Assembly: GCA_000004985.1 (NCBI GenBank)
Contig: GG738886.1
Strand: one strand, 5' to 3'
Source: Naegleria gruberi
Lineage: Eukaryota
Length of the DNA: 64,000 nt
Below the pieces are notes generated by a model that was not told the DNA's origin, did no database searches, and saw nothing but the letters and a program-made list of their open reading frames with translations. Made by a program: the position numbers and the translations under genes. Positions 23,858 through 52,772 of this stretch are shown here, piece after piece; position 1 is the first letter of the stretch, and each line of letters begins with the position of its first letter.

Positions 23858-24594
23858 TATTTACACTATTTACAGAAGAATAAATTATTGAGGTTTTTTG
23901 AGCTATTAATTACTAGAAGCACACAGGATTACTATTGTTGCTGTTGCTATTCTTGTTGTTGATTCAGCGATTGGCCTTGATTTGTGTAACGGCTAGAGAT
24001 TGAACAATCTCTATGACAGAAGCTGACTGAAACAAAAGAGTTCCAGTGGTTTGGAGTTTAAGGTTTTTTTTTTGAAAGGCCTATTCGTTCAAGCCAACGT
24101 TCCTTTTGTTGCTTCTACAAGTACATTAACCAACTCTAACTGACATCAAGATTTCATTCTTATTTATTTGAAAAAAGTAACCTTAGAGGGAAATATGCTC
24201 CAAACAAATAGTGGGTTCATTTGTTCCAACATCATGTTTCGGAAATGTCACCCCTGGCATGTGTCAATACCATTATGTAATAATATTACTACAGTAACAA
24301 CTTCATCGACAGAGCTATATCTCTGAGAATTAATATTTGGAAACCAATAGAGTTTATTGAAGTTAGCAAATAATAATAACATTGCCTCTACGGCAGTGAC
24401 GAGAAATAATCAATCAAACTTGACAATGAATGCAGCAGTGACACAAAACCCATTATCCTCTTCAAATACTCCAACCATTGTAATTCCTAATAATAATAAT
24501 AATAATATCATACAACAACAGGATCAATCATGAAAATTTAAAGTTAATAATTTGAGGTAAAAACCTTATTAAAATTTTCCAACTCGCCACGTTA

Positions 24595-24665
24595 CCGTCT
24601 CGGGAGGAATCGAACCTCCGTCAATGGATTCAAAGTCCACTATGCTACCATTACACCACGAGACG
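24595..24665 (-). tRNA. tRNA-Gln (anticodon UUG)
   Basis: Reverse complement: CGTCTCG TG GTGTAATGGTAGCAT AG TGGA CTTTGAA TCCA TTGAC GGAGG TTCGATT CCTCC CGAGACG G. The acceptor stem is 7 bp, the D-loop is Gln-type GGTGTAATGG, the anticodon loop CUUUGAA gives UUG, and the T-loop is TTCGATT. Confidence 0.85.
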
Positions 24666-24962
24666 AGCACATTTAATAACCACTTGATTATACCATAGAT
24701 AAAGAATCAAAAATGTCACTCTCAAAATATTTTTAATTTGATATAGAGGAAAGGTACGGTTTACAATTTTAAAACTTGTTTTCCATTTTGATAAATTAAA
24801 AAATATTGAAAAAAAATAGGGGAGAAACTGTGAACTCTTTCTCGATAGATATTGTATTTGGGGTTGTGATTTTTCTACTGTATGTAGATATTAATGTCTA
24901 GTATTAATGGTAAATTTTTTTAAAAGTTAGTCTGGAAGAACACGAAGAAAAAAGATGATGTT

Positions 24963-24983: not shown

Positions 24984-25444
24984 GGGTTATGGAATTACCT
25001 AATGTGGAAATTGAATTCAATTTTGAAATTGAATTAATACAATGTTTTTTAAATTATTATTATTTAAATGTATTTCACATTAATTTTGATAATGTAATAT
25101 TAAAGATATTGATGATTGGGTATAGGGGAACGGAATTTCCTAATTGGGAATGTCATCACACCAACAATAAATTAAATTTATTATTTATTCATTGATGTTC
25201 ACTAACACATTACATGATGAAACAATTCAAACATTTACTCAAACTTTAAACATTAACATTAACCATCGGGTAACGGATTTTAATACATGTACAGTATGTT
25301 TATAATTGGTCGACGCACAGAAATTTAAATAAAAAGAATTAACAATAATAAAAGCAAAATGCTCACAACATTGGAGAACGGGAAATGAAATTCCCAAATT
25401 AAATTGAGAAACAACACAATCACAATAATTCATACTATCAAAAT
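24984..25444. mobile_element. 461-bp AT-rich insertion splitting the tRNA-Gly gene within its T-loop, flanked by an 8-9 bp direct repeat (G)AATTGAAC
   Basis: (G)AATTGAAC occurs at 24975..24983 and again at 25444..25452. Removing 24984..25452 restores a perfect 71-nt tRNA-Gly. The insert has no long ORF and no clear terminal inverted repeats. It contains a palindrome AATTGAATTCAATT near its left end and an inverted copy of GGTCGACGCA at 25306..25315. Confidence 0.5.
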
Positions 25445-25502
25445 GAATTGAACCCGGGTCACGGCGATGGCAACGCCGTATTCTACCACTAAACCATCGA
25501 CG
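25445..25502 (-). tRNA. 5' portion (about positions 1-60) of tRNA-Gly (anticodon GCC), interrupted in the T-loop
   Basis: Reverse complement GCGTCGA TG GTTT AGTGGTA GAAT A CGGCG TTGCCAT CGCCG TGAC CCGGG TTCAATT. The anticodon stem is a perfect 5 bp, the loop gives anticodon GCC, and it closely matches eukaryotic tRNA-Gly-GCC. The 3' T-stem and acceptor strand are missing here and lie 461 bp away. Confidence 0.8.
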
Positions 25503-25612
25503 CTTCTTGAATCATTATTCAGGCTGTTTATTTTATTTAAGGTAACCCTGTTAGTAATCTCCCGCCATTTTTAGTTGTTTTCATCTACAGTCATGAAATT
25601 TAATTTAAAAAA

Positions 25613-44079: not shown

Positions 44080-47000
44080 TTATTCGTAAACCTCAGCAAA
44101 GATAGTGTTGGAACGACCAAATATTTCTGGTGAGTACATTTCTTCACATTTGGTTGGTGGAATAATGAAGGATCCGATTTGAGTGGCACGACACAAATGT
44201 TTGAAAGTGTGAGTTCCTTCCCAGAGCAAACTGGAGAATGCTTCAACACGTTCATCTCTACTATTGACATGTTCATACCATGGATAGTTCCACCAACATC
44301 TAGATTTCTTAACTTCACCTGAAGGAGCGTTACCTTTCAATTCAGGATTAATTGGTTCCAAACCAGCAGGTAAAAAGTCAACCAAAGCAACATGATAACG
44401 TCTACTGGTATTAGTGAATGTAATGATAACTCTAACCAATTCACCAGCTTTAAATTTCCAACAGTTTCTTGCCTTATCAAATTGAGCATGAGATGGATCA
44501 GTAACACCCTCATAGCTTCTCTCAATTTGGAATCCATAATCAAGAGCTGGTAATAATAAATTCTTAGGAGCATAGTCCATTCCAATTCTATAGTACAATC
44601 TACCAGGACCTTCCTTCAAGATGGCCAATGTTTGTGCACCTTCAGTGGTAGTAAGTTGTCTCATTGGAATAGTAAGAACATTTTCATCCTTATTTCTTCC
44701 CTTGAAAACTTGTTCTCCACAATAATCTTCTCCAAGCCACATCTTGGCAGTGAAATCAGGAGTGACACCTTCAAAGACATGGAAATAACTGTTGAGAGCA
44801 AGAAGGATGAAAACATTTTCTTGAGTATTGCCCCATCTTCCCTTCTTCTTATGAGCTAAAAGTCCCTTGACAACCTTTGGAATGAGATTATTTTGTGGTA
44901 CCATATGAATGAGCATTTCCAAACAAATTCCATCAGTTCTTCTATCACTGTGCAACATGATAAGCTTGCTGCTTTGCTCATCTCCATAGCTTGTAACAAA
45001 GTTGGCTGTTTGAGCAGTTTCATTGACTCTCATTAAAATATAATTCACAATTTCAGTCGATTTTGTTGTGGCTTCCTTTCCATTGGCAAAGAACATTGCT
45101 GAAGCAGTCCAAGACAAAGTTTCAAGACAAGTATCCTTCAATCCACATTCTGAATATAATTGGTCAGCTTTTTGTTTGGCTCTTGAATCTCCCAATAGGG
45201 CGGCAACATAATAAGCATATGATCTAATGGCATATTTTGATGAAGGAGAGTAATATGTATCACGAATATAATTCTCAATATCACAGAGGAAATTAGTGAG
45301 TTTGGAAACAACATTATTATTGAGAGAATAACCTGCAATCTTGGCTCTAGCAAAGGCATGACCTACGTGGCAAGAAAGGTAAGGACTGACTGAATAATCA
45401 CTTCTGTAAGTCCACCATCCGAATCCACCATTTGGAAATTGTCTTCCATTCAAAATACCCAACGATAATTGTACAGTAGAGTTAAGCATAATTGAGCTTG
45501 GAATATCCTTGACCTTGAATGCTTGAAGTACATCCTTGAGAGCAACAATTGATAAAATCTTACTTGACAATTGTTCACAACATTCAAAGGAATAGTTGTA
45601 AACATAAAGGAAGGCATCAGTCAAGGCAGACAATGCTGTACTACTGGTAGTGATTTGTAAGCCACCAAATTGAGGATAGATATTTTCTGGAGCCTTAACT
45701 GGTTGGAATGTAGTGCAATCACCATCCAATTCACCATAATGAGCAAATGCTTCTGTGGTTGCTGGTGTGAATACTCTGAGTTCCTTTTCAACAGCATCAG
45801 AAAAGTTGATCAATTCGGAAACAGAAACAGCAACTTGGAATTTAGAAATACCAACCTTGGTTGCTTGCATTGGGAATCTCAATTCAGCTCTCTTAAGAGC
45901 AGGGATTTTAACATTCAAACCTCTCTTGGATGGATCCAACAATTCGAGTCCATCATAGGCAACAGCAATATGAACATTCAAATCAATAAGGGTTTGATTT
46001 TGTAAAACACAAGCAAATTCTGCCTTATCACCAAAGTTCAAAAATCTTGGAAGGGAAGGTCTAATTGCTAGTGGCAATTGTGCAACAATTGAAGATTCTC
46101 CCAAGCCGTACAAACTATCTAGTTTGGTAGAAACAGCTGTAATTCTGTATCTCGTCAAATTGTCAGGTAATTTGAATGGCACTCTGGCCTTGCCTTGAGC
46201 ATCTGTTACACATACTGGACTAAAGACAGCAACTGGATTGAAATTCTTTCTGACAACAATGGCAGATCCAACTTCCTCACCTCCTTCACATCCACCAGCA
46301 TCGTCATTACATTCTTCGCACTCTTTTTCCTCACATCTCTTTTTGGATTTCTTACAACTTTTCCTTTCTTGCACTTCTTCTTGGCAATCACAATCATCAT
46401 AACAACAACAGGAACGACATAAACATCCTTCACACTTGCAACATTCACATTCATCATCATCACATTCTTCCTCATCAGAACTATCTTCAGGAGGAGATTG
46501 AATGTTGATATTATCAAAACTCTTGACAAATACGTGGTCTCTCAATGAGAACTCTGAGAAGCTTTGGCCAGTACCAACTATGAATGTGCTCAAAGGATTA
46601 GATATTCTATAGCCAGTCAATGAAAGAACAGCTTCATCAACAGCAACGAGACAAACCTCACTTCCAGCTTGTGGTTTAGAGTTTTCCTTGTCAGTTACCA
46701 AAACATCAACAAAGGTCTCAACACCTGGAGTAACAAATTGCTTCTCTGGAGTGACCAATACATCGAGTTGATGCACTTTGGATGAGACACCAATATAACA
46801 AGTTCCATTTGCGTACGCAGGTTGTTTTGGGAGGTCGAGAGGTAATCCAAGAGAATCACTTCTTGATTCACTACCTTGGAGCATTACACTAACTGTTACA
46901 TTTGGAATGTGTTCTTTGGTAATTTTGAGAGTGAATTCAGTTGATCCAACTTCTGGATCAATGGTGATTGGAATATTATCGATTACAGAATTGAGGCAAA

Positions 47001-50000
47001 CAGTAACAACACCATTAGCCTTACCGTCGAATGGAGATTGAATCAAAATTTTGGCTTCTTCTCCAATTTCATACATTCCTTTGTCTGCAACCAAGAGGGC
47101 TTGTTGCTTTGAAAGTCTTGAACCAACAACATCCTTCTTTGATTTACCACCAGTTACGTATAGGGAGTTATTTGAAGAGTTAGTTAAACCGGTTTCTGTA
47201 TCCTTAATTCTCAATGTGAACTTGTAGTTACCACCCTTATCGAAACTAATAGGATATTTGACTGGTTCAGATTCAGACTTGAATACCTTCTTGAAAACTT
47301 CAACAGATTCATGAACAACACTGAACCCCTTCTTCTTTTCAACGGTTGTTGTAGCAACCAGTTCCATATCAATACCAGGAATAGTATTACCTTCAAGATC
47401 AGTGGTAACCATGAATAAATTGGTTTGAACATTTGGTTTAACAAACATCTTTTCAATCTTCATTCCACAATAATATTTGCAAGGGTGAACAGTAAATGTA
47501 GTGGAATCATTAATAGTTTGACGATTAATATCTTGAACCGATGTTTCAACAGTAATGTTCATTGGAGATTTCTCTTGTCTTTCGGTTTCATCGAAGAGGA
47601 TTGCAATTTCATGTTCACCATCAGAATTACAAACACCTTCAAATGTAACTGGTTTGTAATTTTCACTTCCATAAGTATCATAACACCAATAACGATAAAA
47701 TGGATTTGAGATGTAAGTGGAGAAGTTGAAACCAGAAAAGTTTGGTGGGGTATAACTTGTCTTTGATTGTTTGATAACATAGGAACACTTTGAACCAGAG
47801 AGACCTCCACCTGAGTAGTATGCTGCTTGGGTCTTGAGAATTGTTAAGTTATTAACAATATATCTGCATGGTGGGACAGATGTTGAGACTGTAAATTCTG
47901 GAGTACGGAACTCTTGTACATTAAAGTTTGTATGCATTGTCCTACCGTTGAACTCAATGGAATGAGAGCCCAAGTTAACATTGTCTGGAATTGAAAACTT
48001 AATATCAAAGGAACCATGTTCTGAGATGGTGTATTTTCCAGTGTGATATTTTGCACCTCTAGAATCTTTAACAATGTATTCATAAGTTCCCTTTTTTGGT
48101 AGAGTTGGAATAGTTCTTGATCCGTACTTTTCAACCTTGAGTTCTCTACAAATACCCTTGATGAAAATCTCTTCTCCAGGTTTATAGAGTCCTCTATCGT
48201 TGAAAATATTATATGCTAATCTATCATCAATTCTGTAGTGATAAAGGTATAAATCTGGAATAAAGCAGGTATCATTCAAATAAGATCCAATCAGTGTATA
48301 TTCACTTCCGTTTGAGGTGTGACTAAGAACAGCAATTCCTGTTTCAGAGTCTGGTTTTGTGCTAAATGATGGAAGGAATTTCTTTTGTTTGAAACTAACA
48401 TCAGATTTGATGACAGTTCCATCAATTAAAGAATTGGCCCAACAGTAAACATTACCTGTTCGTGTATCGAAAAAGCCATCCATTGCCATCTTTGTCACCT
48501 GAATCCAGGAAATGTAAACTGGTCTGTATTTCCAATTATCTTTCCAATGTGTTTTGGATGGTTCAACTGCAACCAAAAGTTGACCTAACATGTCATTTGG
48601 ATGTTGTAAGTATTGGGTCAAGTCAATTTCTGTATCAACTGGTTCATCTGGTTGACCATTGGTATTTACCATAGTGTCAAGAACTTTTTTTCCAGAAAGA
48701 GATAATGTTGCATTGGAATAAGCATCATAGTAGAAAACATTGTTTGAATAATCACCTGGTTTAACTTGATAAACTTGGACATGGATAGCTTCAAGATTTA
48801 CACTGAATACGGAGAAGGATGGTTTAGTATTGACAGTAGGATCAATAACCATCATTCCGGTCTTGTAGGCTTGTAAAGATTGAGCTGCTGGTCCAACTTG
48901 GAAAGTAAAGTTATTTTCTCCTGCAAGTTTTTGTCCCCAAACATCTGTTATTTGACCAGAGAGTTGAACTTGGTATGTGGTACGTCCCTTAATATTACCA
49001 GATATTGTCAAGTAATTTCCAGATGGATTAATACGTAATCTTTCAATAGGTGGTTGAATACTTATATGTTCCTCATTTAATAATTCAATATCAATATTAT
49101 TACTAAATGTGAAAGAGAATGGTTCCAATGGAAGCTTTCCACCAGTATGGGAAGTAACTTTGAATTCTGGATAGTTTGTAGCTGTGAAGGAAATATCTTT
49201 TTCTGTTCTCAAAGGACCTTCAATAGATCTGGCTCCTTGCAATAATGTTATAGCGAGGGTTTCTGACAGGGCTACTCTCCTACTTGCTACATCAATTTCA
49301 ATCCAAACATGTCTATTTGGAGCAGAATTTTCCAATTTGTAATTTACAGAATTGTACAATGAGGATGATCTCTTTTCCAATGAAGATTCTTTAAGCTTTC
49401 CTTCAATATAACTCTTTACAACTGAAGTACGGCCATCATTTTGAACCAGCTTGCAAGAGTATCCAGGTATATTTACACTAGAAAAGATTTGGTTTGGATC
49501 AATATCTTGATCAAACTCCATATAAACAAATGGAAATTCGTTAATTGGAACTGCATGGTAACTATTTGGAAGATAGTTGAGCATTGTCAATCTAGGTGTT
49601 TCAAATTTAAAGGAAACATTCTTATCCAATACTCCTCCAACACTAGACTTGGTTTTTTCACAATCAATAGTGACTGTGTATTCCGTAGACATGTCAAATC
49701 TATAATTTGGTTCAAAGAATAAAGTCTTTGCACCCATCCATCTAAATCTACCACCATTCTTTGGGAATGGTTCAATTTTTACAAAAGAAAAATCTTGATC
49801 ATGAACATCTTCAACACCAGACACAGCAACCATTGGCTGAGAGAATGTGATGGAAATATGTGGCACTGATCGATCAACTGGACCTTCTGGCAAATATCTC
49901 ACCACTGCCAAACTTGATCCCAACAATGCTTCTTCTTCCTTTCTCACTTGTTCTGGTTTTTCCAATTTCTCTTCTGGTGGGAATGGAATTTCATTAACAT

Positions 50001-50334
50001 CAGCACTTCTTGGAGGTTTGAGGGTTTTTTCTCTCATGAAAAAGTCACCTTCTTCTGATGTTGATTTTTGAATTTGTGGCAATCTGGCCAATAATTTCTC
50101 TGTCAATTCATCACCAAGAGATTCAACACTTGCACCACTCTTTTGATCCTCATCCTTCTTGACAGAAGTTGCCTTTGATCCAAGTAAAATCATGGCAGTA
50201 GAATCTTCAGGTGTTGGCTCCCTAACATGAATATTCAACCCAACAGTGTAATCTTCATTATTTGCACCAAGAATGCTTGTCTCACTGCAAGGTTCCTCCT
50301 CTTCATAATCCATATCATCATCATAAAACACCAT
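44080..50334 (-). CDS. Alpha-2-macroglobulin/thioester-containing protein family member, single exon about 2085 aa
   Basis: Thioester-like region NYSFECCEQLSSKILSIVAL (CxEQ in place of GCGEQ). The thioester-domain region FPNGGFGWWTYRSDYSVSPYLSCHVGHAFARAKIAG and the domain order fit the A2M family. The acidic N-terminus (MVFYDDDMDYEEEEP) has no signal peptide. Confidence 0.8.
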   Translation of the reverse strand: MVFYDDDMDYEEEEPCSETSILGANNEDYTVGLNIHVREPTPEDSTAMILLGSKATSVKKDEDQKSGASVESLGDELTEKLLARLPQIQKSTSEEGDFFMREKTLKPPRSADVNEIPFPPEEKLEKPEQVRKEEEALLGSSLAVVRYLPEGPVDRSVPHISITFSQPMVAVSGVEDVHDQDFSFVKIEPFPKNGGRFRWMGAKTLFFEPNYRFDMSTEYTVTIDCEKTKSSVGGVLDKNVSFKFETPRLTMLNYLPNSYHAVPINEFPFVYMEFDQDIDPNQIFSSVNIPGYSCKLVQNDGRTSVVKSYIEGKLKESSLEKRSSSLYNSVNYKLENSAPNRHVWIEIDVASRRVALSETLAITLLQGARSIEGPLRTEKDISFTATNYPEFKVTSHTGGKLPLEPFSFTFSNNIDIELLNEEHISIQPPIERLRINPSGNYLTISGNIKGRTTYQVQLSGQITDVWGQKLAGENNFTFQVGPAAQSLQAYKTGMMVIDPTVNTKPSFSVFSVNLEAIHVQVYQVKPGDYSNNVFYYDAYSNATLSLSGKKVLDTMVNTNGQPDEPVDTEIDLTQYLQHPNDMLGQLLVAVEPSKTHWKDNWKYRPVYISWIQVTKMAMDGFFDTRTGNVYCWANSLIDGTVIKSDVSFKQKKFLPSFSTKPDSETGIAVLSHTSNGSEYTLIGSYLNDTCFIPDLYLYHYRIDDRLAYNIFNDRGLYKPGEEIFIKGICRELKVEKYGSRTIPTLPKKGTYEYIVKDSRGAKYHTGKYTISEHGSFDIKFSIPDNVNLGSHSIEFNGRTMHTNFNVQEFRTPEFTVSTSVPPCRYIVNNLTILKTQAAYYSGGGLSGSKCSYVIKQSKTSYTPPNFSGFNFSTYISNPFYRYWCYDTYGSENYKPVTFEGVCNSDGEHEIAILFDETERQEKSPMNITVETSVQDINRQTINDSTTFTVHPCKYYCGMKIEKMFVKPNVQTNLFMVTTDLEGNTIPGIDMELVATTTVEKKKGFSVVHESVEVFKKVFKSESEPVKYPISFDKGGNYKFTLRIKDTETGLTNSSNNSLYVTGGKSKKDVVGSRLSKQQALLVADKGMYEIGEEAKILIQSPFDGKANGVVTVCLNSVIDNIPITIDPEVGSTEFTLKITKEHIPNVTVSVMLQGSESRSDSLGLPLDLPKQPAYANGTCYIGVSSKVHQLDVLVTPEKQFVTPGVETFVDVLVTDKENSKPQAGSEVCLVAVDEAVLSLTGYRISNPLSTFIVGTGQSFSEFSLRDHVFVKSFDNINIQSPPEDSSDEEECDDDECECCKCEGCLCRSCCCYDDCDCQEEVQERKSCKKSKKRCEEKECEECNDDAGGCEGGEEVGSAIVVRKNFNPVAVFSPVCVTDAQGKARVPFKLPDNLTRYRITAVSTKLDSLYGLGESSIVAQLPLAIRPSLPRFLNFGDKAEFACVLQNQTLIDLNVHIAVAYDGLELLDPSKRGLNVKIPALKRAELRFPMQATKVGISKFQVAVSVSELINFSDAVEKELRVFTPATTEAFAHYGELDGDCTTFQPVKAPENIYPQFGGLQITTSSTALSALTDAFLYVYNYSFECCEQLSSKILSIVALKDVLQAFKVKDIPSSIMLNSTVQLSLGILNGRQFPNGGFGWWTYRSDYSVSPYLSCHVGHAFARAKIAGYSLNNNVVSKLTNFLCDIENYIRDTYYSPSSKYAIRSYAYYVAALLGDSRAKQKADQLYSECGLKDTCLETLSWTASAMFFANGKEATTKSTEIVNYILMRVNETAQTANFVTSYGDEQSSKLIMLHSDRRTDGICLEMLIHMVPQNNLIPKVVKGLLAHKKKGRWGNTQENVFILLALNSYFHVFEGVTPDFTAKMWLGEDYCGEQVFKGRNKDENVLTIPMRQLTTTEGAQTLAILKEGPGRLYYRIGMDYAPKNLLLPALDYGFQIERSYEGVTDPSHAQFDKARNCWKFKAGELVRVIITFTNTSRRYHVALVDFLPAGLEPINPELKGNAPSGEVKKSRCWWNYPWYEHVNSRDERVEAFSSLLWEGTHTFKHLCRATQIGSFIIPPTKCEEMYSPEIFGRSNTIFAEVYE

Positions 50335-50573
50335 TTTCTCTCCTATTAAAATTAAATAAAAATTATAATTATCAATCAAAAGAATGTTGCTGTATTTTTT
50401 TTGATCTGTTGGGAGTTGGAGATCGGCACCTATTTTATGCCTGTTCGGATGAACTTGTGTGGATAAGGAGGCGAACAGGGAATCATTAAAAGGAAGAACA
50501 TAATGAGCATTTCAAGATGTAATAACTCTCATTGTGTGAATGGCACACTGAGAGTAATTGATGAACGAAAAAT

Positions 50574-51700
50574 CTATTCTAAAGGTAGTCTATAAACAAA
50601 GTTATCTATTGCTGCCTGGTATCGTAGACGGTCTTGCTGAGATTGTTCTTCATAGTATTGTAATTGTTGTGTGGAGAGTTTTTCCCATGCAGCAGAGATT
50701 TCTGAATAATCAATATCCCATGTTGGATTGATTTTTCTCTTCTCTTCTGTGTACTCTTCGGTAAAGACAAGAAATGGAGCTCTAATGAAATGGGTTCTCA
50801 TTAAATAGGAAGCTTTGTCTTTTCTTGATTCTGGAATGAGTGCCATGTGCAAGTCATTGAATAATTTCACTGGTTGAGTGATTAATCCATTACAATTAGG
50901 TGATCCTGTAATTTGTAAAAAATCTGATAGTAATTTCTCATTTTGAATTTCCATATTACTAAAGGTTGCATGAGTAAGGAAGACGTTAGTTATTACGCCA
51001 TAAAATTCACCATTATCCCTCATGCAGACCAAAAATCGATGAGTACAGAGGAAACAAAATCCAACCCTGAATACATTTTGTAATCTCCACTCTTTTAACA
51101 CAAGTTTCAATTTTTCTTTTTCATCATCTAACAAGGCACCAATTGTTAATTTCATAGTTTCATCAAGATCTTTCAGTCCTATCTTTTTCAAACTCGCAAT
51201 TAAACTCAATACTTTCCAATAAAAATGTTCTTTCCAAGAATATCCCAATAAACTCAATTTTTTCACAGCAGATGAATCTTCCAATATGTTGAAAATTTCT
51301 CCTAATGGCATTGGAGATCCTGCAGACAAATCAACTCGTTGATAATTATCCAAATCACATCCAATCCTATCAAGAGAAAGTAATGGGAACTCTTCACTCA
51401 AATTCTCAACATGACACACAATATTAGAAAAGTAATATTTGCAAAACTGCTCACTCGTAATAAAGTCATTCCACTTCCGACAGACCATTCTACACGGATC
51501 AGTATTTAATGATGATGATTTAGAAACTTCTTCATGATCGGAATTCTGAATTAGTAAATGAATAAATCGATAGCTATATAAAATATTATTGATATGAAAT
51601 AAATACTAACACACAATAACAATTCACACGGATGAAAATATGTAAAGACATGAACAATAATTTCATCTTGTTCAAACCAGGCCTTTGCTTGCTGTTCCAT
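50574..51700 (-). CDS. F-box protein; join(51700..51611,51534..50574)
   Basis: Exon 1 is MEQQAKAWFEQDEIIVHVFTYFHPCELLLC (the N-terminal half of an F-box). After a 76-nt GTTAGT..TCAG intron, exon 2 continues ...MVCRKWNDFITSEQF (the C-terminal half). The acceptor choice is uncertain. Confidence 0.45.
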
Positions 51701-51857: not shown

Positions 51858-52772
51858 TTATTGTAGGGAGCATCGCTTTTTCTTTCTTTTTGGTACAGAT
51901 ATTGCATGAGTCATTAATGCTGATTTTATACACAACTCTACAAACTGTGTCATAATTTCATCACCATCCTCCAATGATGAAATTTCATAATAGGTCAGGC
52001 ATTTGTGTTCCTTACAAAACTTGATAGCATTCTGTACAGTAACATCATCCTCTTTGGTTTTTAAATCCTTTTGAGTTCCTAATATTAACATTGGAGTGTG
52101 TGGCATGTAGTGATTGGCGTAGGGAAGCCACTTTGATTTGATTCTTTCTAAACCGTATACACGTCTGAATGGGAATGTTGCCACAAAGAGATCACTTCCA
52201 AACATTAAGAGAGGAATCATTCGTTCATAATCCATATCAGAAACATCTACAAAATCAATACAGAACTTTCTTCCCTCAATGGAAATGTGATATTGGAATT
52301 GATTATCTAAATTGTATTTACCCAACCTCTTCAATAGATCGGTTACACCAGAATGGTGATCACCTAAAACAGCCACTTTGAAATGAGGTAGTGGACATTT
52401 CAATTCTTCCACTGATTTTTGTAAAATTTTGTCATAGCTTTCGTATTCATAATTTTCAGTAAATTTCAATAATTCCATTCCACACACTTGCAAATAGTGA
52501 AGATAATAATTTTCTTTCGGATCTTCTTTCATTAAAATAGAATAGTGGCATGCATATCCATATTCCAATACTGGTTTTACTTTCGAATAATTTTCCAATT
52601 TCCTATCGTAATGTTTCTTCCACAATAAATCACTCGATCCAATCACATAAAACTCCTTACAAACCATCATGTAATTCACCAAACTCTTCACATTAATAAA
52701 CGAACAAATCAGCATCCACTCATCATTCGAAACACGTTGATGATGATTCATTTTTTTGTTATCAAATTTCAA
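51858..52772 (-). CDS. F-box + Rho-family pseudo-GTPase fusion with C-terminal CAAX box
   Basis: N-terminal F-box DEWMLICSFINVKSLVNYMMVCKEFYVIGSSDLLW. The Rho/Rac-like domain aligns with Rac1 throughout (FKVAVLGDHHSGVT...IDFVDVSDMDYERMIPLLMFGSDLFVATFPFRRVYGLERIKSKWLPYANHYMPHTPMLILGTQKDL). The P-loop Lys/Ser and switch II DTAGQ are lost. It ends with the CAAX box CSLQ. Confidence 0.6.
   Translation of the reverse strand: MKFDNKKMNHHQRVSNDEWMLICSFINVKSLVNYMMVCKEFYVIGSSDLLWKKHYDRKLENYSKVKPVLEYGYACHYSILMKEDPKENYYLHYLQVCGMELLKFTENYEYESYDKILQKSVEELKCPLPHFKVAVLGDHHSGVTDLLKRLGKYNLDNQFQYHISIEGRKFCIDFVDVSDMDYERMIPLLMFGSDLFVATFPFRRVYGLERIKSKWLPYANHYMPHTPMLILGTQKDLKTKEDDVTVQNAIKFCKEHKCLTYYEISSLEDGDEIMTQFVELCIKSALMTHAISVPKRKKKRCSLQ

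What the first reader, a model, noticed from the sequence alone, without database searches (positions are those of the whole stretch)
44080..50334. Giant alpha-2-macroglobulin/thioester-family protein with a Cys/Asp/Glu-rich insert and no signal peptide
This is a single 6.25-kb exon encoding about 2085 aa with A2M-family architecture and a thioester-like CCEQ motif. Around residues 1290-1360, where the protease bait region normally sits, there is an extraordinary low-complexity block (SSDEEECDDDECECCKCEGCLCRSCCCYDDCDCQEEVQERKSCKKSKKRCEEKECEECNDDAGGCEGGEE) with a metallothionein-like Cys density. The N-terminus from the first ATG is strongly acidic (MVFYDDDMDYEEEEP) with no secretion signal. 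A2M/TEP/CD109 proteins are normally secreted or periplasmic, so this suggests either a missed 5' exon or an unusual cytosolic thioester protein. A perfect 8-bp inverted repeat (CCTGTTCG...CGAACAGG, 50441..50480) lies about 110-145 bp upstream of the ATG.
Basis: partly seen in the sequence, partly recalled or inferred. Interest (0 to 1): 0.65.

Follow-up and report, generated by a model that had tools for sequence, protein, structure and literature searches.

The report
Signal-less bacterial-type A2M in Naegleria
This amoeba gene encodes a bacterial-type, thioester-bearing protease trap (alpha-2-macroglobulin) that has lost its secretion signal, as have all its relatives in other amoebae, and that carries a fast-evolving cysteine-rich "bait", which points to an undescribed family of protease traps probably working inside the cell.

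Summary
One intact ORF (44080..50334, minus strand, 2084 aa) encodes an alpha-2-macroglobulin. It is the bacterial type, like ECAM/YfhM, not the animal A2M/TEP/CD109 type. The thioester pocket is conserved: Y-S-F-E-CCEQ at residues 1581-1588, plus the C-terminal RDER and EEMY motifs. A 70-residue insert (1285-1354) holds 17 Cys, 17 Glu and 9 Asp. It sits at the bait position and is the only long disordered stretch in an AlphaFold model.

The missing signal peptide is not an annotation slip:
- There is no in-frame ATG upstream.
- Only 239 bp separate the gene from the next one.
- 22 eukaryotic homologues lack a signal peptide. They come from Naegleria, Willaertia, Percolomonas, four Amoebozoa transcriptomes, a fern and metagenomes.
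- These 22 form one clade (97% NJ bootstrap) nested among bacterial homologues, about 90% of which start with a signal peptide or lipobox.

Cys-rich baits recur in this clade and are absent in bacteria. They evolve fast: 38% identity inside the insert against 85% outside. One relative carries a complete ubiquitin at the bait position.

Best reading: a cytosolic snap-trap protease inhibitor of ancient bacterial origin. I found no published description of this family. The 8-bp inverted repeat exists but gives no evidence of function.

The parts
44080..50334 (-). Complete intronless CDS (2084 aa plus stop) of a bacterial-type alpha-2-macroglobulin. It is the Naegleria 'group A' orthologue of N. 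lovaniensis C9374_003975 and N. fowleri FDP41_011249.
   Evidence: Identity is 60% and 59% over 100% of the length. The three-sequence clade has NJ bootstrap 1.0.
50242..50334 (-). Acidic N-terminal tail (residues 1-31). It occupies the place where bacterial homologues carry a signal peptide or lipobox, just before the shared 'GLxFRLSEG / REPTPED' module.
48898..49122 (-). Bacterial Ig-like domain (Big_5), residues 405-479.
   Evidence: E 1.9e-11.
47917..48207 (-). MG2 macroglobulin domain, residues 710-806.
   Evidence: E 4.4e-10.
46618..47094 (-). A2M bait-region domain (A2M_BRD), residues 1081-1239.
   Evidence: E 3.1e-17. It aligns to ECAM chain positions 717-880.
46273..46482 (-). Cys/Glu/Asp-rich bait insert, residues 1285-1354 (17 Cys, 17 Glu, 9 Asp).
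   Evidence: Composition. It lies in the stretch that does not align to ECAM and that corresponds to ECAM's disordered bait. AlphaFold pLDDT is below 50 for residues 1275-1356. There is no Pfam match and only a 15-nt x 2.2 tandem repeat, so it is not a microsatellite.
45967..46230 (-). A2M family domain (PF00207), residues 1369-1456. It is preceded by the conserved RKNFNPVAVF segment that follows the bait.
44773..45633 (-). Helical thioester domain (TED), about residues 1568-1854.
   Evidence: Helices 494-780 of the AlphaFold model. The fold matches native Salmonella A2M and ECAM.
45571..45594 (-). Thioester pocket Y-S-F-E-C-C-E-Q (residues 1581-1588). It is equivalent to Y1183-P-Y1185-G-C1187-L-E-Q1190 of ECAM.
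   Evidence: In alignment A2 the E and Y1581 are invariant, and the C and Q are nearly invariant.
44125..44535 (-). Bacterial MG10 / C-terminal MG domain (bMG10), residues 1934-2070.
   Evidence: E 9.5e-30.
44248..44259 (-). RDER motif (residues 2026-2029), equivalent to the RDDR motif of the ECAM C-terminal MG domain.
44134..44145 (-). EEMY motif (residues 2064-2067), equivalent to ExMY. In ECAM and Salmonella A2M the Met and Tyr cap the thioester.
50440..50479 (.). Perfect 8-bp inverted repeat CCTGTTCG ... CGAACAGG with a 24-nt spacer, in the 239-bp upstream intergenic region. Its function is unknown and it is probably incidental.
   Evidence: Not conserved in the orthologues.
50430..50510 (-). 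Hydrophobic 26-codon upstream ORF (MLIMFFLLMIPCSPPYPHKFIRTGIK). It is out of frame with the main ORF and contains the inverted repeat. It is the only conceivable candidate for a leader exon.
   Evidence: The possible splice donors are weak, and nothing similar lies upstream of the orthologues.

Best explanation
The gene encodes a monomeric 'snap-trap' protease inhibitor of the bacterial type-I (thioester) alpha-2-macroglobulin kind. An ancestor of amoeboid eukaryotes inherited it from bacteria by an ancient transfer. Since then it has lost its export signal, so it most likely works in the cytosol, or at least outside the classical secretory route.

Proposed mechanism:
1. The 70-residue Cys/acidic insert is the exposed, disordered bait.
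2. An endopeptidase cuts the bait. This releases the contacts between the bait-region domain and the C-terminal MG domain (RDER and EEMY motifs).
3. The thioester domain swings out. The Cys1585-Gln1588 thioester is uncovered and bonds covalently to a lysine of the attacking protease.
4. The protease is caught on the collapsed molecule.

In ECAM the trap guards the periplasm when the outer membrane is breached. By analogy, the likely job here is to guard the amoeba's cytosol against proteases that should not be there. Those could be its own leaked phagolysosomal proteases, or proteases of intracellular bacteria and viruses.

The bait evolves fast but stays Cys-rich. That fits a reducing compartment, and it suggests an extra property (metal binding, acylation or redox sensitivity) that cannot be settled here.

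Shown: family, domain order, motif conservation, bait position and disorder, absence of a signal peptide across the clade, and nesting within bacteria.

Inferred: cytosolic location, an actual thioester, protease trapping, and the physiological targets.
For: **Family and fold**
- Pfam domains are in the order of bacterial A2M.
- PDB sequence hits are only YfhM/ECAM and Salmonella A2M, at E about 1e-18, and CCEQ aligns to CLEQ.
- An AlphaFold model of residues 1075-2084 has mean pLDDT 78.
- The model's best structural matches are native Salmonella A2M 4u48 (E 2e-48), native ECAM 5a42, and 4ziu (TM-score 0.77 normalised to the target). It matches native forms better than activated forms.

**Machinery defined for ECAM in PMC4498604, all present here**
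- Y-x-[Y/F]-x-C-x-E-Q.
- RDER and EEMY.
- A disordered bait between A2M_BRD and the RxNFNP segment.

**No signal peptide**
- The window protein has none.
- By the hydrophobicity measure, 21 of 22 eukaryotic clade members lack an N-terminal h-region. The 22nd, Percolomonas P0124, is borderline (1.99 against a 1.9 cut-off) and does not read as a signal peptide.
- 189 of 211 full-length non-eukaryotic homologues have a signal peptide or lipobox.
- Some SP-less homologues are ORFs from transcriptomes: Percolomonas, Cavostelium, Protostelium, Sappinia and Dracoamoeba.

**Phylogeny and residency**
- The eukaryotic sequences are monophyletic: NJ bootstrap 0.96 for 11 sequences and 0.97 for 22.
- The clade lies 16 nodes deep within the bacterial sequences.
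- GC3 is 0.27, like neighbouring genes at 0.26-0.35. Neighbours include an ORF with F-box-like and Ras-family hits, and a weak, sub-threshold HMG-box hit.
- Orthologues sit on contigs of about 1 Mb in N. fowleri and N. lovaniensis.

**Bait behaviour**
- N. lovaniensis and N. fowleri are 85% identical outside the insert but 38% inside it.
- Cys makes up 5.8% of baits in the eukaryotic clade and 0.1% in signal-bearing bacteria. A 'CCC' triplet occurs in 5 of 20 eukaryotic baits and 0 of 211 others.
- Cys counts are 17, 12, 13, 17 and 19, with no conserved parity or positions. That argues against a disulfide-knotted secreted module.

**Cytosolic hints from relatives**
- P0008, on a 146-kb eukaryotic contig, has a complete ubiquitin (PF00240, profile positions 1-72 of 72, E 7.6e-25) ending in LRLRGG at the bait position.
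- Dictyostelium DdiCPRas2 has a Ras-like GTPase inserted about 775 residues from the C-terminus of a bacterial-A2M-like region (PMC2430557).
Against: - There is no transcript, proteomic or localisation data for this gene. Cytosolic location is inferred only from the absence of a signal.
- A hydrophobic upstream ORF (50510..50430) could be joined in frame to the main ORF by hypothetical GT..AG splices.
- Leaderless secretion exists in amoebae.
- Formation of the thioester, and its survival in a glutathione-rich cytosol, are untested.
- A bait with 17 cysteines and many acidic residues is not an obviously good broad-spectrum protease substrate.
- Two clade members (Sappinia P0168 and environmental P0211) have lost CxEQ, so not all members need the thioester.
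- The trees are neighbour-joining only.
- The bacterial homologues closest to this protein (about 2000 aa) are themselves uncharacterised.
- No signal-peptide predictor was available. The signal-peptide calls rest on a hydrophobicity heuristic plus reading the sequences.
Confidence: 0.6

Rival explanations
1. The protein is an ordinary secreted or vesicular A2M whose signal peptide is encoded by a missed 5' exon. The candidate is the hydrophobic upstream ORF MLIMFFLLMIPC..., spliced onto the main ORF.
For: - A 26-codon hydrophobic upstream ORF starts 176 nt upstream.
- Several GT..AG combinations would fuse it in frame without a stop codon.
- A2M proteins are normally exported, and the bacterial relatives are.
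Against: - The candidate donors (GTTCAT, GTTCGC, GTTCTT) are weak. This judgement rests on the general eukaryotic donor consensus, not on Naegleria data.
- The whole promoter plus leader exon would have to fit into 239 bp.
- No comparable upstream ORF exists for the N. fowleri or N. lovaniensis orthologues.
- All other eukaryotic homologues lack a signal peptide, including ORFs from transcriptomes.
- The acidic N-terminus is conserved among the three orthologues as the start of the protein.
Confidence: 0.07
2. The protein has no leader but is still exported, by unconventional secretion, extracellular vesicles or delivery into phagosomes. There it traps proteases of prey or competitors outside the cytosol.
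For: - The ancestral function was extracytoplasmic.
- Amoebae meet many foreign proteases in food vacuoles.
- This rests on general knowledge only. No tool result supports it directly.
Against: - Loss of the signal peptide is uniform across a clade spanning Heterolobosea, Amoebozoa and a fern.
- Free-cysteine-rich baits would be a liability in oxidising compartments.
- One relative has ubiquitin inserted at the bait position, and another has a Ras-like GTPase inserted about 775 residues from the C-terminus. Both are cytosolic modules.
Confidence: 0.12
3. The protein is cytosolic but is not primarily a protease inhibitor. It acts as a thioester 'tagging' protein, like C3 or TEP, that marks invaders or damaged compartments. 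Alternatively, oxidation or metal loading of the Cys-rich (or, in relatives, Met-rich) segment triggers the conformational switch, rather than proteolysis.
For: - Baits across the family are enriched in the two oxidisable, Cu(I)-binding residues. Met is 4.5-6.2% in baits against 1.4% elsewhere. Cys is 5.8% in eukaryotic baits.
- CxC, CC, CCC and CxxC patterns are typical of metal clusters (sequence).
- From my own knowledge: oxidation changes the state of human A2M.
Against: - No metal-binding family matches the insert.
- Cys positions are not conserved even between orthologues.
- The complete bait-release machinery of the protease-triggered mechanism is conserved.
Confidence: 0.12
4. The Cys-rich block is mainly a membrane-anchoring 'cysteine string' carrying multiple S-palmitoylations. 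It tethers the trap to the cytosolic face of a membrane, replacing the bacterial lipoprotein anchor. The flanking residues serve as the bait.
For: - CCC or CCCC runs next to basic residues recur: RSCCCY, QKCCCRSK, KRCCCS, ECCCCDD.
- ECAM is membrane-anchored in the periplasm (legend of Fig. 5).
- From my own knowledge: cysteine strings are classical palmitoylation sites.
Against: - Several clade members have no Cys in the bait (P0003, P0008, P0125).
- The strongly acidic context is atypical for acylation sites.
- Nothing was tested.
Confidence: 0.08
5. The insert is neutral low-complexity drift in a tolerant loop, and the gene is a decaying relic of horizontal transfer.
For: - Low positional conservation in the insert.
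- From my own knowledge: Naegleria proteins often carry low-complexity runs.
Against: - A 6.25-kb ORF is intact in a genome of about 34% GC.
- The gene is conserved at 59-60% across three Naegleria species, with all catalytic-pocket motifs retained.
- Cys-richness is kept in all three orthologues and arises again in paralogues and in Amoebozoa.
- Homologues in other species are found in transcriptomes, so they are expressed.
Confidence: 0.02

Closest known systems
E. coli ECAM (YfhM) and Salmonella SaA2M: type-I bacterial alpha-2-macroglobulins (PDB 5a42, 4ziq, 4rtd, 4u48)
   Same: - Same MG, bait-region, TED and C-terminal MG (bMG10) domains in the same order.
- CxEQ thioester with the aromatic residues before it.
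- RDDR-like and ExMY motifs.
- A disordered bait at the same position.
- The model is closest to the native monomeric conformation.
   Different: - About 430 residues longer, with an extra N-terminal module that includes Big_5.
- Only about 18% identity in the structural alignment.
- No signal peptide or lipobox.
- Encoded in a eukaryotic nucleus.
- The bait is Cys/acidic-rich.
- No PBP1c operon partner is possible.
Uncharacterised ~2000-aa 'Ig-like domain-containing alpha-2-macroglobulin family proteins' of Acidobacteriota (Pyrinomonadaceae, Blastocatellia), Chloroflexota, Myxococcota and Cyanobacteriota/Obscuribacterales
   Same: - Full-length collinear homologues, 35-37% identical overall and 45-49% over the C-terminal third.
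- Same N-terminal module, Pfam set and thioester motif.
   Different: - They begin with a signal peptide or lipobox.
- Their baits contain essentially no Cys (0.1%) and often carry a Met-rich 'GG..MM[KR]SMA.P' core.
Dictyostelium discoideum DdiCPRas2 (Elias & Novotny 2008, PMC2430557)
   Same: - A eukaryotic (amoebozoan) protein with a bacterial COG2373/A2M-like region and a foreign module inserted about 775 residues from the C-terminus.
- By length that matches the bait position: 730 residues follow the insert here.
   Different: - 3933 residues, with a long unrelated N-terminal half.
- The insert is a circularly permuted Ras GTPase, not a Cys-rich segment.
- I could not obtain its sequence, so the bait-position match is an inference from the published coordinates.
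Human A2ML1, CD109 and insect TEP1 (monomeric eukaryotic thioester proteins)
   Same: - Same superfamily fold (Foldseek E 1e-37 to 1e-44).
- Monomeric, thioester-dependent capture.
- From my own knowledge: hypervariable bait regions.
   Different: - 12-14% identity.
- They are secreted or GPI-anchored and carry a signal peptide.
- Their thioester-capping residues are arranged differently.
- The window protein groups with the bacterial proteins, not with these.
Metallothioneins and cysteine-string proteins (comparison for the insert only)
   Same: Cys density of about 24%, with CxC, CC, CCC and CxxC spacing.
   Different: - No sequence-family match at E<=10.
- No conserved Cys positions between orthologues.
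- Embedded in a strongly acidic loop of a 230-kDa protein.

Membership tests
Alpha-2-macroglobulin / thioester-protein superfamily | A string of macroglobulin (MG) beta-sandwich domains plus an alpha/alpha-toroid thioester domain. | tested here: met
   - Pfam finds MG2, A2M_BRD, A2M and bMG10.
- The AlphaFold model shows beta-sandwich domains and a helical TED.
- Foldseek matches A2M, TEP, C5 and CD109 at E<1e-35.
Alpha-2-macroglobulin / thioester-protein superfamily | CxEQ thioester motif at the canonical TED position. | tested here: met
   CCEQ at 1585-1588 aligns to the CLEQ of ECAM. In the 30-sequence alignment E is invariant and C and Q are nearly invariant.
Alpha-2-macroglobulin / thioester-protein superfamily | A thioester bond actually forms and is reactive. 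| not testable with these tools
   This needs biochemistry: methylamine or heat treatment and thiol titration.
Bacterial type-I A2M (ECAM/SaA2M type) | Bacterial C-terminal MG10 domain carrying the RDDR and ExMY motifs that cap the thioester. | tested here: met
   bMG10 E 9.5e-30. RDER at 2026-2029 and EEMY at 2064-2067. The motifs are as defined in PMC4498604.
Bacterial type-I A2M (ECAM/SaA2M type) | Two aromatic residues in the TED just before the thioester (Y-x-Y-x-C). | tested here: met
   Y1581-S-F1583-E-C1585: Tyr is kept and the second Tyr is replaced by Phe. Bacterial relatives also show Y-P-[YF].
Bacterial type-I A2M (ECAM/SaA2M type) | A disordered bait between the bait-region domain and the following MG domain. 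| tested here: met
   - The stretch 1253-1372 does not align to ECAM and corresponds to ECAM's bait.
- Allowing for the N-terminal truncation of the crystallised construct, that ECAM stretch includes the disordered Arg923-Leu942.
- pLDDT is below 50 for residues 1275-1356.
Bacterial type-I A2M (ECAM/SaA2M type) | N-terminal signal peptide or lipoprotein box giving periplasmic, membrane-anchored location. | tested here: not met
   There is no h-region, and net charge is -11 over the first 30 residues. There is no in-frame upstream ATG. Bacterial homologues do have the signal.
Bacterial type-I A2M (ECAM/SaA2M type) | Bacterial genomic context, often next to pbpC (PBP1c). | tested here: not met
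   The gene lies in a eukaryotic, roughly 34% GC genome. Its neighbours are an ORF with F-box-like and Ras-family hits and an ORF with a weak, sub-threshold HMG-box hit. Orthologues are in Naegleria nuclear scaffolds.
Metazoan A2M/TEP/CD109/complement clade | A2M_recep (receptor-binding) C-terminal domain, a signal peptide, and closer relatedness to animal proteins than to bacterial ones. | tested here: not met
   - There is no A2M_recep hit, and the C-terminal domain is bMG10.
- PDB sequence hits are bacterial only.
- All listed homologues outside the eukaryotic clade that carry a source name are bacterial. One exception, from the green alga Ostreobium, was not followed up.
Signal-less eukaryotic clade of bacterial-type A2M (proposed here; no published name found) | Groups with the SP-less eukaryotic sequences in phylogeny, and shares loss of the signal peptide while keeping the N-terminal module. 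| tested here: met
   NJ bootstrap is 0.97 for the 22-sequence clade and 1.0 for the window protein with its N. lovaniensis and N. fowleri orthologues.
Metallothionein (for the insert) | A match to a metallothionein family profile, or conserved Cys positions. | tested here: not met
   No Pfam hit at E<=10. Identity with the orthologues inside the insert is 24-29%, with shifting Cys positions.

The most novel reading that the evidence does not exclude
Amoeboid eukaryotes possess a cell-autonomous immune family of bacterial origin: cytosolic thioester 'decoy traps'. The bait loop has been repeatedly replaced by mimics of host targets of pathogen proteases. The examples seen are a whole ubiquitin ending in LRLRGG (metagenomic relative P0008), a Ras-like GTPase (Dictyostelium DdiCPRas2) and, in Naegleria, a Cys-string or metallothionein-like segment. 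An effector protease (a deubiquitinase or ULP-type, a Ras/Rho-cleaving or another effector protease) that cuts the decoy is then covalently captured. This would be a protease-trap analogue of the integrated decoys of plant NLRs.
Probability: 0.2. Interest if true: 0.9.

Novelty: new variant of a known kind. Interest (0 to 1): 0.68.

Why it matters
Thioester proteins (A2M, TEPs, complement) are textbook extracellular or periplasmic defence molecules. A conserved family that lacks a signal peptide would move this chemistry into the cytosol of professional phagocytes. The family here spans Heterolobosea, Amoebozoa and a fern.

It would also document an ancient bacteria-to-eukaryote transfer that was repurposed. 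It gives testable candidates for how amoebae, including the pathogen N. fowleri, cope with their own leaked proteases or with those of Legionella-like bacteria and giant viruses.

The variable baits (Cys-rich, Met-rich, ubiquitin) offer a direct experimental handle on which proteases are targeted.

In the searchable literature I found no description of this family. That literature includes a 2026 review of A2M evolution, which contains none of my six search terms (protist, amoeb-, protozoa, horizontal, cytoplasm, signal peptide).

Tried and rejected
- **NCBIfam and PADLOC scans of the protein:** no hits. There is no link to curated bacterial equivalogs or to known anti-phage systems.
- **Pfam scans of the isolated insert and of the N-terminal 167 residues at E<=10:** nothing. 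'Metallothionein-like' is therefore compositional only.
- **Tandem-repeat origin of the insert:** rejected. There is only a 15-nt x 2.2 repeat.
- **The second CGEQ motif (residue 1872) as the thioester:** rejected. It lies outside the TED, and its Cys is Ala in the bacterial homologues read (P0009, P0011) and Ala or Val in P0008 and P0007.
- **The inverted repeat as a conserved regulatory element:** not supported. It is not conserved in the orthologues, and such repeats are common in the window.
- **Search for further ubiquitin-bait relatives using P0008 as query:** none found among the 120 listed hits.
- **Exact look-up of the window protein in public assemblies:** not on record. The source species is therefore inferred. 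It is a Naegleria species, most likely N. gruberi. N. gruberi P0283 is a group-B paralogue at 51% identity.
- **Bacterial contamination:** rejected, from GC3, the neighbouring genes and the orthologues in two other Naegleria genomes.
- **First attempt at a 67-sequence protein alignment:** failed internally. It was repeated with 30 sequences.
- **Literature searches for protist, cytosolic or sulfur-rich-bait A2Ms:** found nothing relevant beyond PMC2430557.

Full report

Yes. The ORF listing gives one ORF at 44080..50379 on the minus strand. The first ATG is at 50334, which yields 2084 residues.

Pfam finds these domains in this order:
- Big_5, residues 405-479
- MG2, 710-806
- A2M_BRD, 1081-1239
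- A2M, 1369-1456
- bMG10, 1934-2070

The only solved structures matched by sequence are E. coli YfhM/ECAM and Salmonella A2M, at E about 1e-18. A second 'YCGEQ' at residue 1872 is a coincidence: its Cys is Ala in the bacterial homologues read (P0009, P0011) and Ala or Val in P0008 and P0007.

The low-complexity block is residues 1285-1354 (nt 46273..46482). It holds 17 Cys, 17 Glu and 9 Asp in 70 residues. No other 70-residue window has more than 3 Cys. It is not a microsatellite.

The N-terminus is as described. Net charge is -11 over 30 residues, there is no hydrophobic core, and there is no transmembrane segment anywhere in the protein.

**2. What kind of A2M is it, and whose genome is this?**

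The closest proteins are Naegleria lovaniensis C9374_003975 (60% identity) and N. fowleri FDP41_011249 (59%). Both are collinear over 100% of the length. Next come paralogues in Naegleria and Willaertia, then about 2000-aa proteins of Acidobacteriota and other bacteria at 35-37%.

The window is about 34% GC. Its neighbours look eukaryotic: one ORF has F-box-like and Ras-family Pfam hits, and another has a weak, sub-threshold HMG-box hit. The gene's GC3 (0.27) matches its neighbours. The two orthologues are single uninterrupted ORFs on scaffolds of about 1 Mb.

So this is a resident nuclear gene of a Naegleria species. It is probably N. gruberi. The exact protein is not on record, and the N. 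gruberi protein P0283 is a paralogue at 51% identity.

The protein is of the bacterial A2M type, not the metazoan A2M/TEP/CD109 type. It has a bMG10 C-terminal domain and no A2M_recep domain, and its only PDB sequence hits are bacterial.

**3. Is the trap machinery intact?**

Fyfe et al. 2015 (PMC4498604) define the features that keep ECAM and SaA2M armed:
- two aromatic residues before C-L-E-Q in the TED;
- a Met-Tyr (ExMY) and an RDDR motif in the C-terminal MG domain, which cap the thioester;
- a disordered bait whose cleavage lets the bait-region domain displace the TED from that cap.

The window protein has all of these:
- Y1581-S-F1583-E-C-C-E-Q
- RDER at 2026-2029
- EEMY at 2064-2067

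In a 30-sequence alignment these columns are invariant or nearly so.

An AlphaFold2 model of residues 1075-2084 has mean pLDDT 78. Its closest structures are native Salmonella A2M (4u48, E 2e-48), native ECAM (5a42) and the native ECAM fragment from MG7 to the C-terminus (4ziu, TM-score 0.77 normalised to the target). Activated forms fit worse.

The only long low-confidence segment of the model is residues 1275-1356, which is the Cys/acidic insert. That segment falls in the stretch that does not align to ECAM, between chain positions 880 and 935. Allowing for the N-terminal truncation of the crystallised construct, this stretch contains ECAM's disordered bait, Arg923-Leu942.

**4. Is the missing signal peptide real?**

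*Local evidence.*
- The in-frame sequence upstream of ATG 50334 has no ATG before a stop codon.
- The upstream same-strand gene ends at 50574, which leaves 239 bp.

*Comparative evidence.*
- By a simple hydrophobicity measure, all 11 eukaryotic homologues from the first search lack an N-terminal h-region. Nearly all bacterial homologues begin with a classical signal peptide or lipobox, followed by the same conserved N-terminal module.
- An exhaustive representative search plus name look-ups added further signal-less members:
  - Percolomonas (Heterolobosea)
  - Cavostelium, Protostelium, Sappinia and Dracoamoeba (Amoebozoa)
  - several environmental sequences
- The named additions are ORFs from transcriptomes.
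- In neighbour-joining trees the eukaryotic sequences are monophyletic. Bootstrap is 0.96 for 11 sequences and 0.97 for 22.
- The clade lies 16 nodes deep inside the bacterial radiation. Its nearest NJ neighbours include Obscuribacterales and cyanobacteria.
- In counts, 21 of 22 clade members are clearly signal-less. Percolomonas is borderline numerically, but its N-terminus does not read as a signal peptide.
- 189 of 211 full-length non-eukaryotic homologues carry a signal.

Loss of the export signal is therefore an old, shared character of this eukaryotic clade. It is not an annotation error in one gene.

*A caveat.* A 26-codon hydrophobic upstream ORF, MLIMFFLLMIPCSPPYPHKFIRTGIK, lies at 50510..50430. 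Hypothetical GT..AG joins could fuse it in frame. However, the donors are weak, and nothing comparable lies upstream of the two orthologues. I give this rival about 7%.

**5. The bait.**

The insert evolves much faster than the scaffold:

| Comparison | Identity outside the insert | Identity inside the insert |
|---|---|---|
| N. lovaniensis vs N. fowleri | 85% | 38%, with indels |
| Window vs N. lovaniensis | 62% | 29% |
| Window vs N. fowleri | 61% | 24% |

(All.)

Yet all three orthologues keep a Cys/acidic composition (17, 12 and 13 Cys). Cys-rich baits appear again in:
- the N. gruberi paralogue P0283;
- an N. lovaniensis paralogue (P0121, a partial model, 12 Cys);
- the divergent N. fowleri paralogue P0093 (17 Cys);
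- the environmental sequence P0201 (19 Cys);
- more weakly, Protostelium, Sappinia and Percolomonas.

Group comparisons:

| Group | Cys in bait | Met in bait | 'CCC' triplet in bait |
|---|---|---|---|
| Eukaryotic clade (n=20) | 5.8% | 6.2% | 5 of 20 |
| Signal-bearing bacteria (n=189) | 0.1% | 4.5% | 0 (0 of 211 when the 22 other SP-less sequences are included) |

Met in the rest of the protein is about 1.4%. Met enrichment is therefore family-wide. A recurrent 'GG..MM[KR]SMA.P' core is seen in many bacterial baits, and also in Willaertia and Cavostelium. That core is probably ancestral.

The Cys counts have no conserved parity or spacing, and the insert matches no Pfam family at E<=10. It is therefore not a disulfide-knotted domain or a recognisable metallothionein. 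A loop dense in free thiols fits a reducing compartment better than a secretory one.

**6. Relatives with telling inserts.**

The metagenomic relative P0008 lies on a 146-kb eukaryotic contig. Its neighbours include an RdRP, an RGS/GPS protein, Tudor-SN and MAPEG. It carries a complete ubiquitin domain (PF00240, profile positions 1-72 of 72, E 7.6e-25) at residues 1234-1305, exactly between A2M_BRD and A2M. The ubiquitin ends in LRLRGG, followed by APIEED.

Elias & Novotny 2008 (PMC2430557) described Dictyostelium DdiCPRas2. In that protein a circularly permuted Ras GTPase is inserted into a COG2373 (bacterial A2M) region, and homology resumes 775 residues before the C-terminus. Here, 730 residues follow the insert, so the insertion point very probably corresponds to the bait. 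This is an inference, because I could not obtain that sequence.

Both inserted modules are cytosolic. That supports an intracellular role. It also suggests, more speculatively, that baits in this family can be decoys of host proteins targeted by pathogen proteases. No second ubiquitin-bait protein was found.

**7. Most likely mechanism.**

*Shown:* family, domain order, motif conservation, bait position and disorder, clade-wide absence of a signal, and bacterial ancestry.

*Inferred:* the protein folds in the cytosol with an internal Cys1585-Gln1588 thioester shielded by F1583/Y1581 and M2066/Y2067. An endopeptidase cuts the exposed bait. The freed bait-region segment displaces the TED from the C-terminal MG domain, and the thioester acylates a lysine on the protease, as in ECAM's monomeric snap-trap.

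By analogy with ECAM guarding the periplasm after an outer-membrane breach, the amoebal protein would guard the cytosol. The threats would be leaked phagolysosomal proteases or proteases of intracellular bacteria and viruses. All eukaryotes identified with this family, except the fern, are amoeboid phagotrophs, including the amoeboflagellates Naegleria and Percolomonas.

The role of the cysteines (metal binding, S-acylation, redox gating or merely a tolerated composition) is open.

Confidence in the overall reading is about 0.6.

**8. Comparison with known systems, and novelty.**

The protein passes every sequence or structure test for a type-I bacterial A2M except the two that concern location: a signal peptide or lipobox, and a bacterial genomic context. 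It fails the tests for the metazoan clade.

Databases label the N. lovaniensis and N. fowleri orthologues only as 'alpha-2-macroglobulin domain-containing' or 'hypothetical' proteins. Full-text searches found no paper describing a signal-less or cytosolic A2M family in protists. A 2026 review of A2M evolution contains none of my six search terms: protist, amoeb-, protozoa, horizontal, cytoplasm, signal peptide.

I therefore rate it a new variant of a known kind. The chemistry and fold are familiar. The compartment, the phylogenetic home and the bait types are not.

**9. The inverted repeat.**

It exists. Perfect 8-bp inverted repeats with 3-40 nt spacers occur 99 times in the window, though this is the only one with GC-rich arms. 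It is not conserved upstream of the orthologues, and it lies inside the hydrophobic upstream ORF. Within its spacer, the octamer AAGTTCAT recurs upstream of all three Naegleria orthologues. That could be a promoter element but was not tested. I draw no functional conclusion from the repeat.

**10. Limits.**
- No expression or localisation data exist for this gene.
- Signal-peptide calls rest on a hydrophobicity heuristic plus inspection.
- The trees are neighbour-joining on trimmed MAFFT alignments.
- The thioester, the trapping and all ideas about the cysteines are untested.

Noticed in passing
window 50430..50510 (-): A 26-codon hydrophobic upstream ORF (MLIMFFLLMIPCSPPYPHKFIRTGIK) starts 176 nt before the A2M start codon. 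Hypothetical weak-donor splices could fuse it to the main ORF. No equivalent lies upstream of the N. fowleri or N. lovaniensis orthologues.
   Followed up: partly
L001:10001-16096 (protein P0008, residues 1234-1305): A metagenomic eukaryotic homologue has a complete ubiquitin domain ending in LRLRGG inserted exactly at the bait position of the A2M scaffold.
   Followed up: partly
bait regions of bacterial and eukaryotic homologues (e.g. P0004, P0125, P0132, P0175, P0245): Baits across the family are enriched in Met (about 4.5-6% against 1.4% elsewhere). They share a recurrent 'GG..MM[KR]SMA.P' core in bacteria and in some amoebae, so the bait is not wholly hypervariable. I found no published mention of this.
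   Followed up: partly
proteins P0168 (Sappinia pedata) and P0211 (environmental): Two members of the signal-less eukaryotic clade have lost the CxEQ thioester motif (FESTEG and HHSSEY). This parallels the thioester-less 'type II' bacterial A2Ms.
   Followed up: no
protein P0095 (Adiantum capillus-veneris): A fern protein belongs to the same signal-less clade (bootstrap 0.96-0.97 with it included). It lies on a 181-Mb scaffold, so it is unlikely to be contamination. It may reflect a separate transfer or ancient retention.
   Followed up: no
protein P0096 (high-GC, signal-less bacterial homologue): This protein contains an insert that looks like a NusG KOW domain (…[48 protein letters not shown]…) within an MG-domain region. 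This was judged by eye only.
   Followed up: no
window 50521..50559: A 16-nt inverted repeat, 88% complementary, with a 7-nt loop lies immediately downstream of the stop codon (50574) of the upstream gene. It may be a 3'-end element of that gene.
   Followed up: no
window 50450..50457; L002 and L004 upstream regions: The octamer AAGTTCAT lies in the spacer of the inverted repeat. It recurs upstream of the N. fowleri and N. lovaniensis orthologues and could be a promoter motif.
   Followed up: no
window 51858..52772 (-): An ORF combines an F-box-like motif (E 1.6e-5) with a Ras-family GTPase domain (E 6e-9), which is an unusual architecture. The neighbouring ORF 50574..51488 has a weak HMG-box hit.
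   Followed up: no
window 24594..24666 and 25433..25504 (-): Two tRNA genes, tRNA-Gln(TTG) and tRNA-Gly(GCC), lie about 770 bp apart.
   Followed up: no
window residues 1872-1876 of the A2M (nt about 44707-44721): A second 'CGEQ' motif, identical to the canonical metazoan thioester motif, occurs outside the TED. It is shared by the Naegleria and Willaertia homologues, but its Cys is Ala or Val in the other homologues read (bacterial P0009 and P0011; P0007, P0008). It could mislead motif-based annotation.
   Followed up: yes
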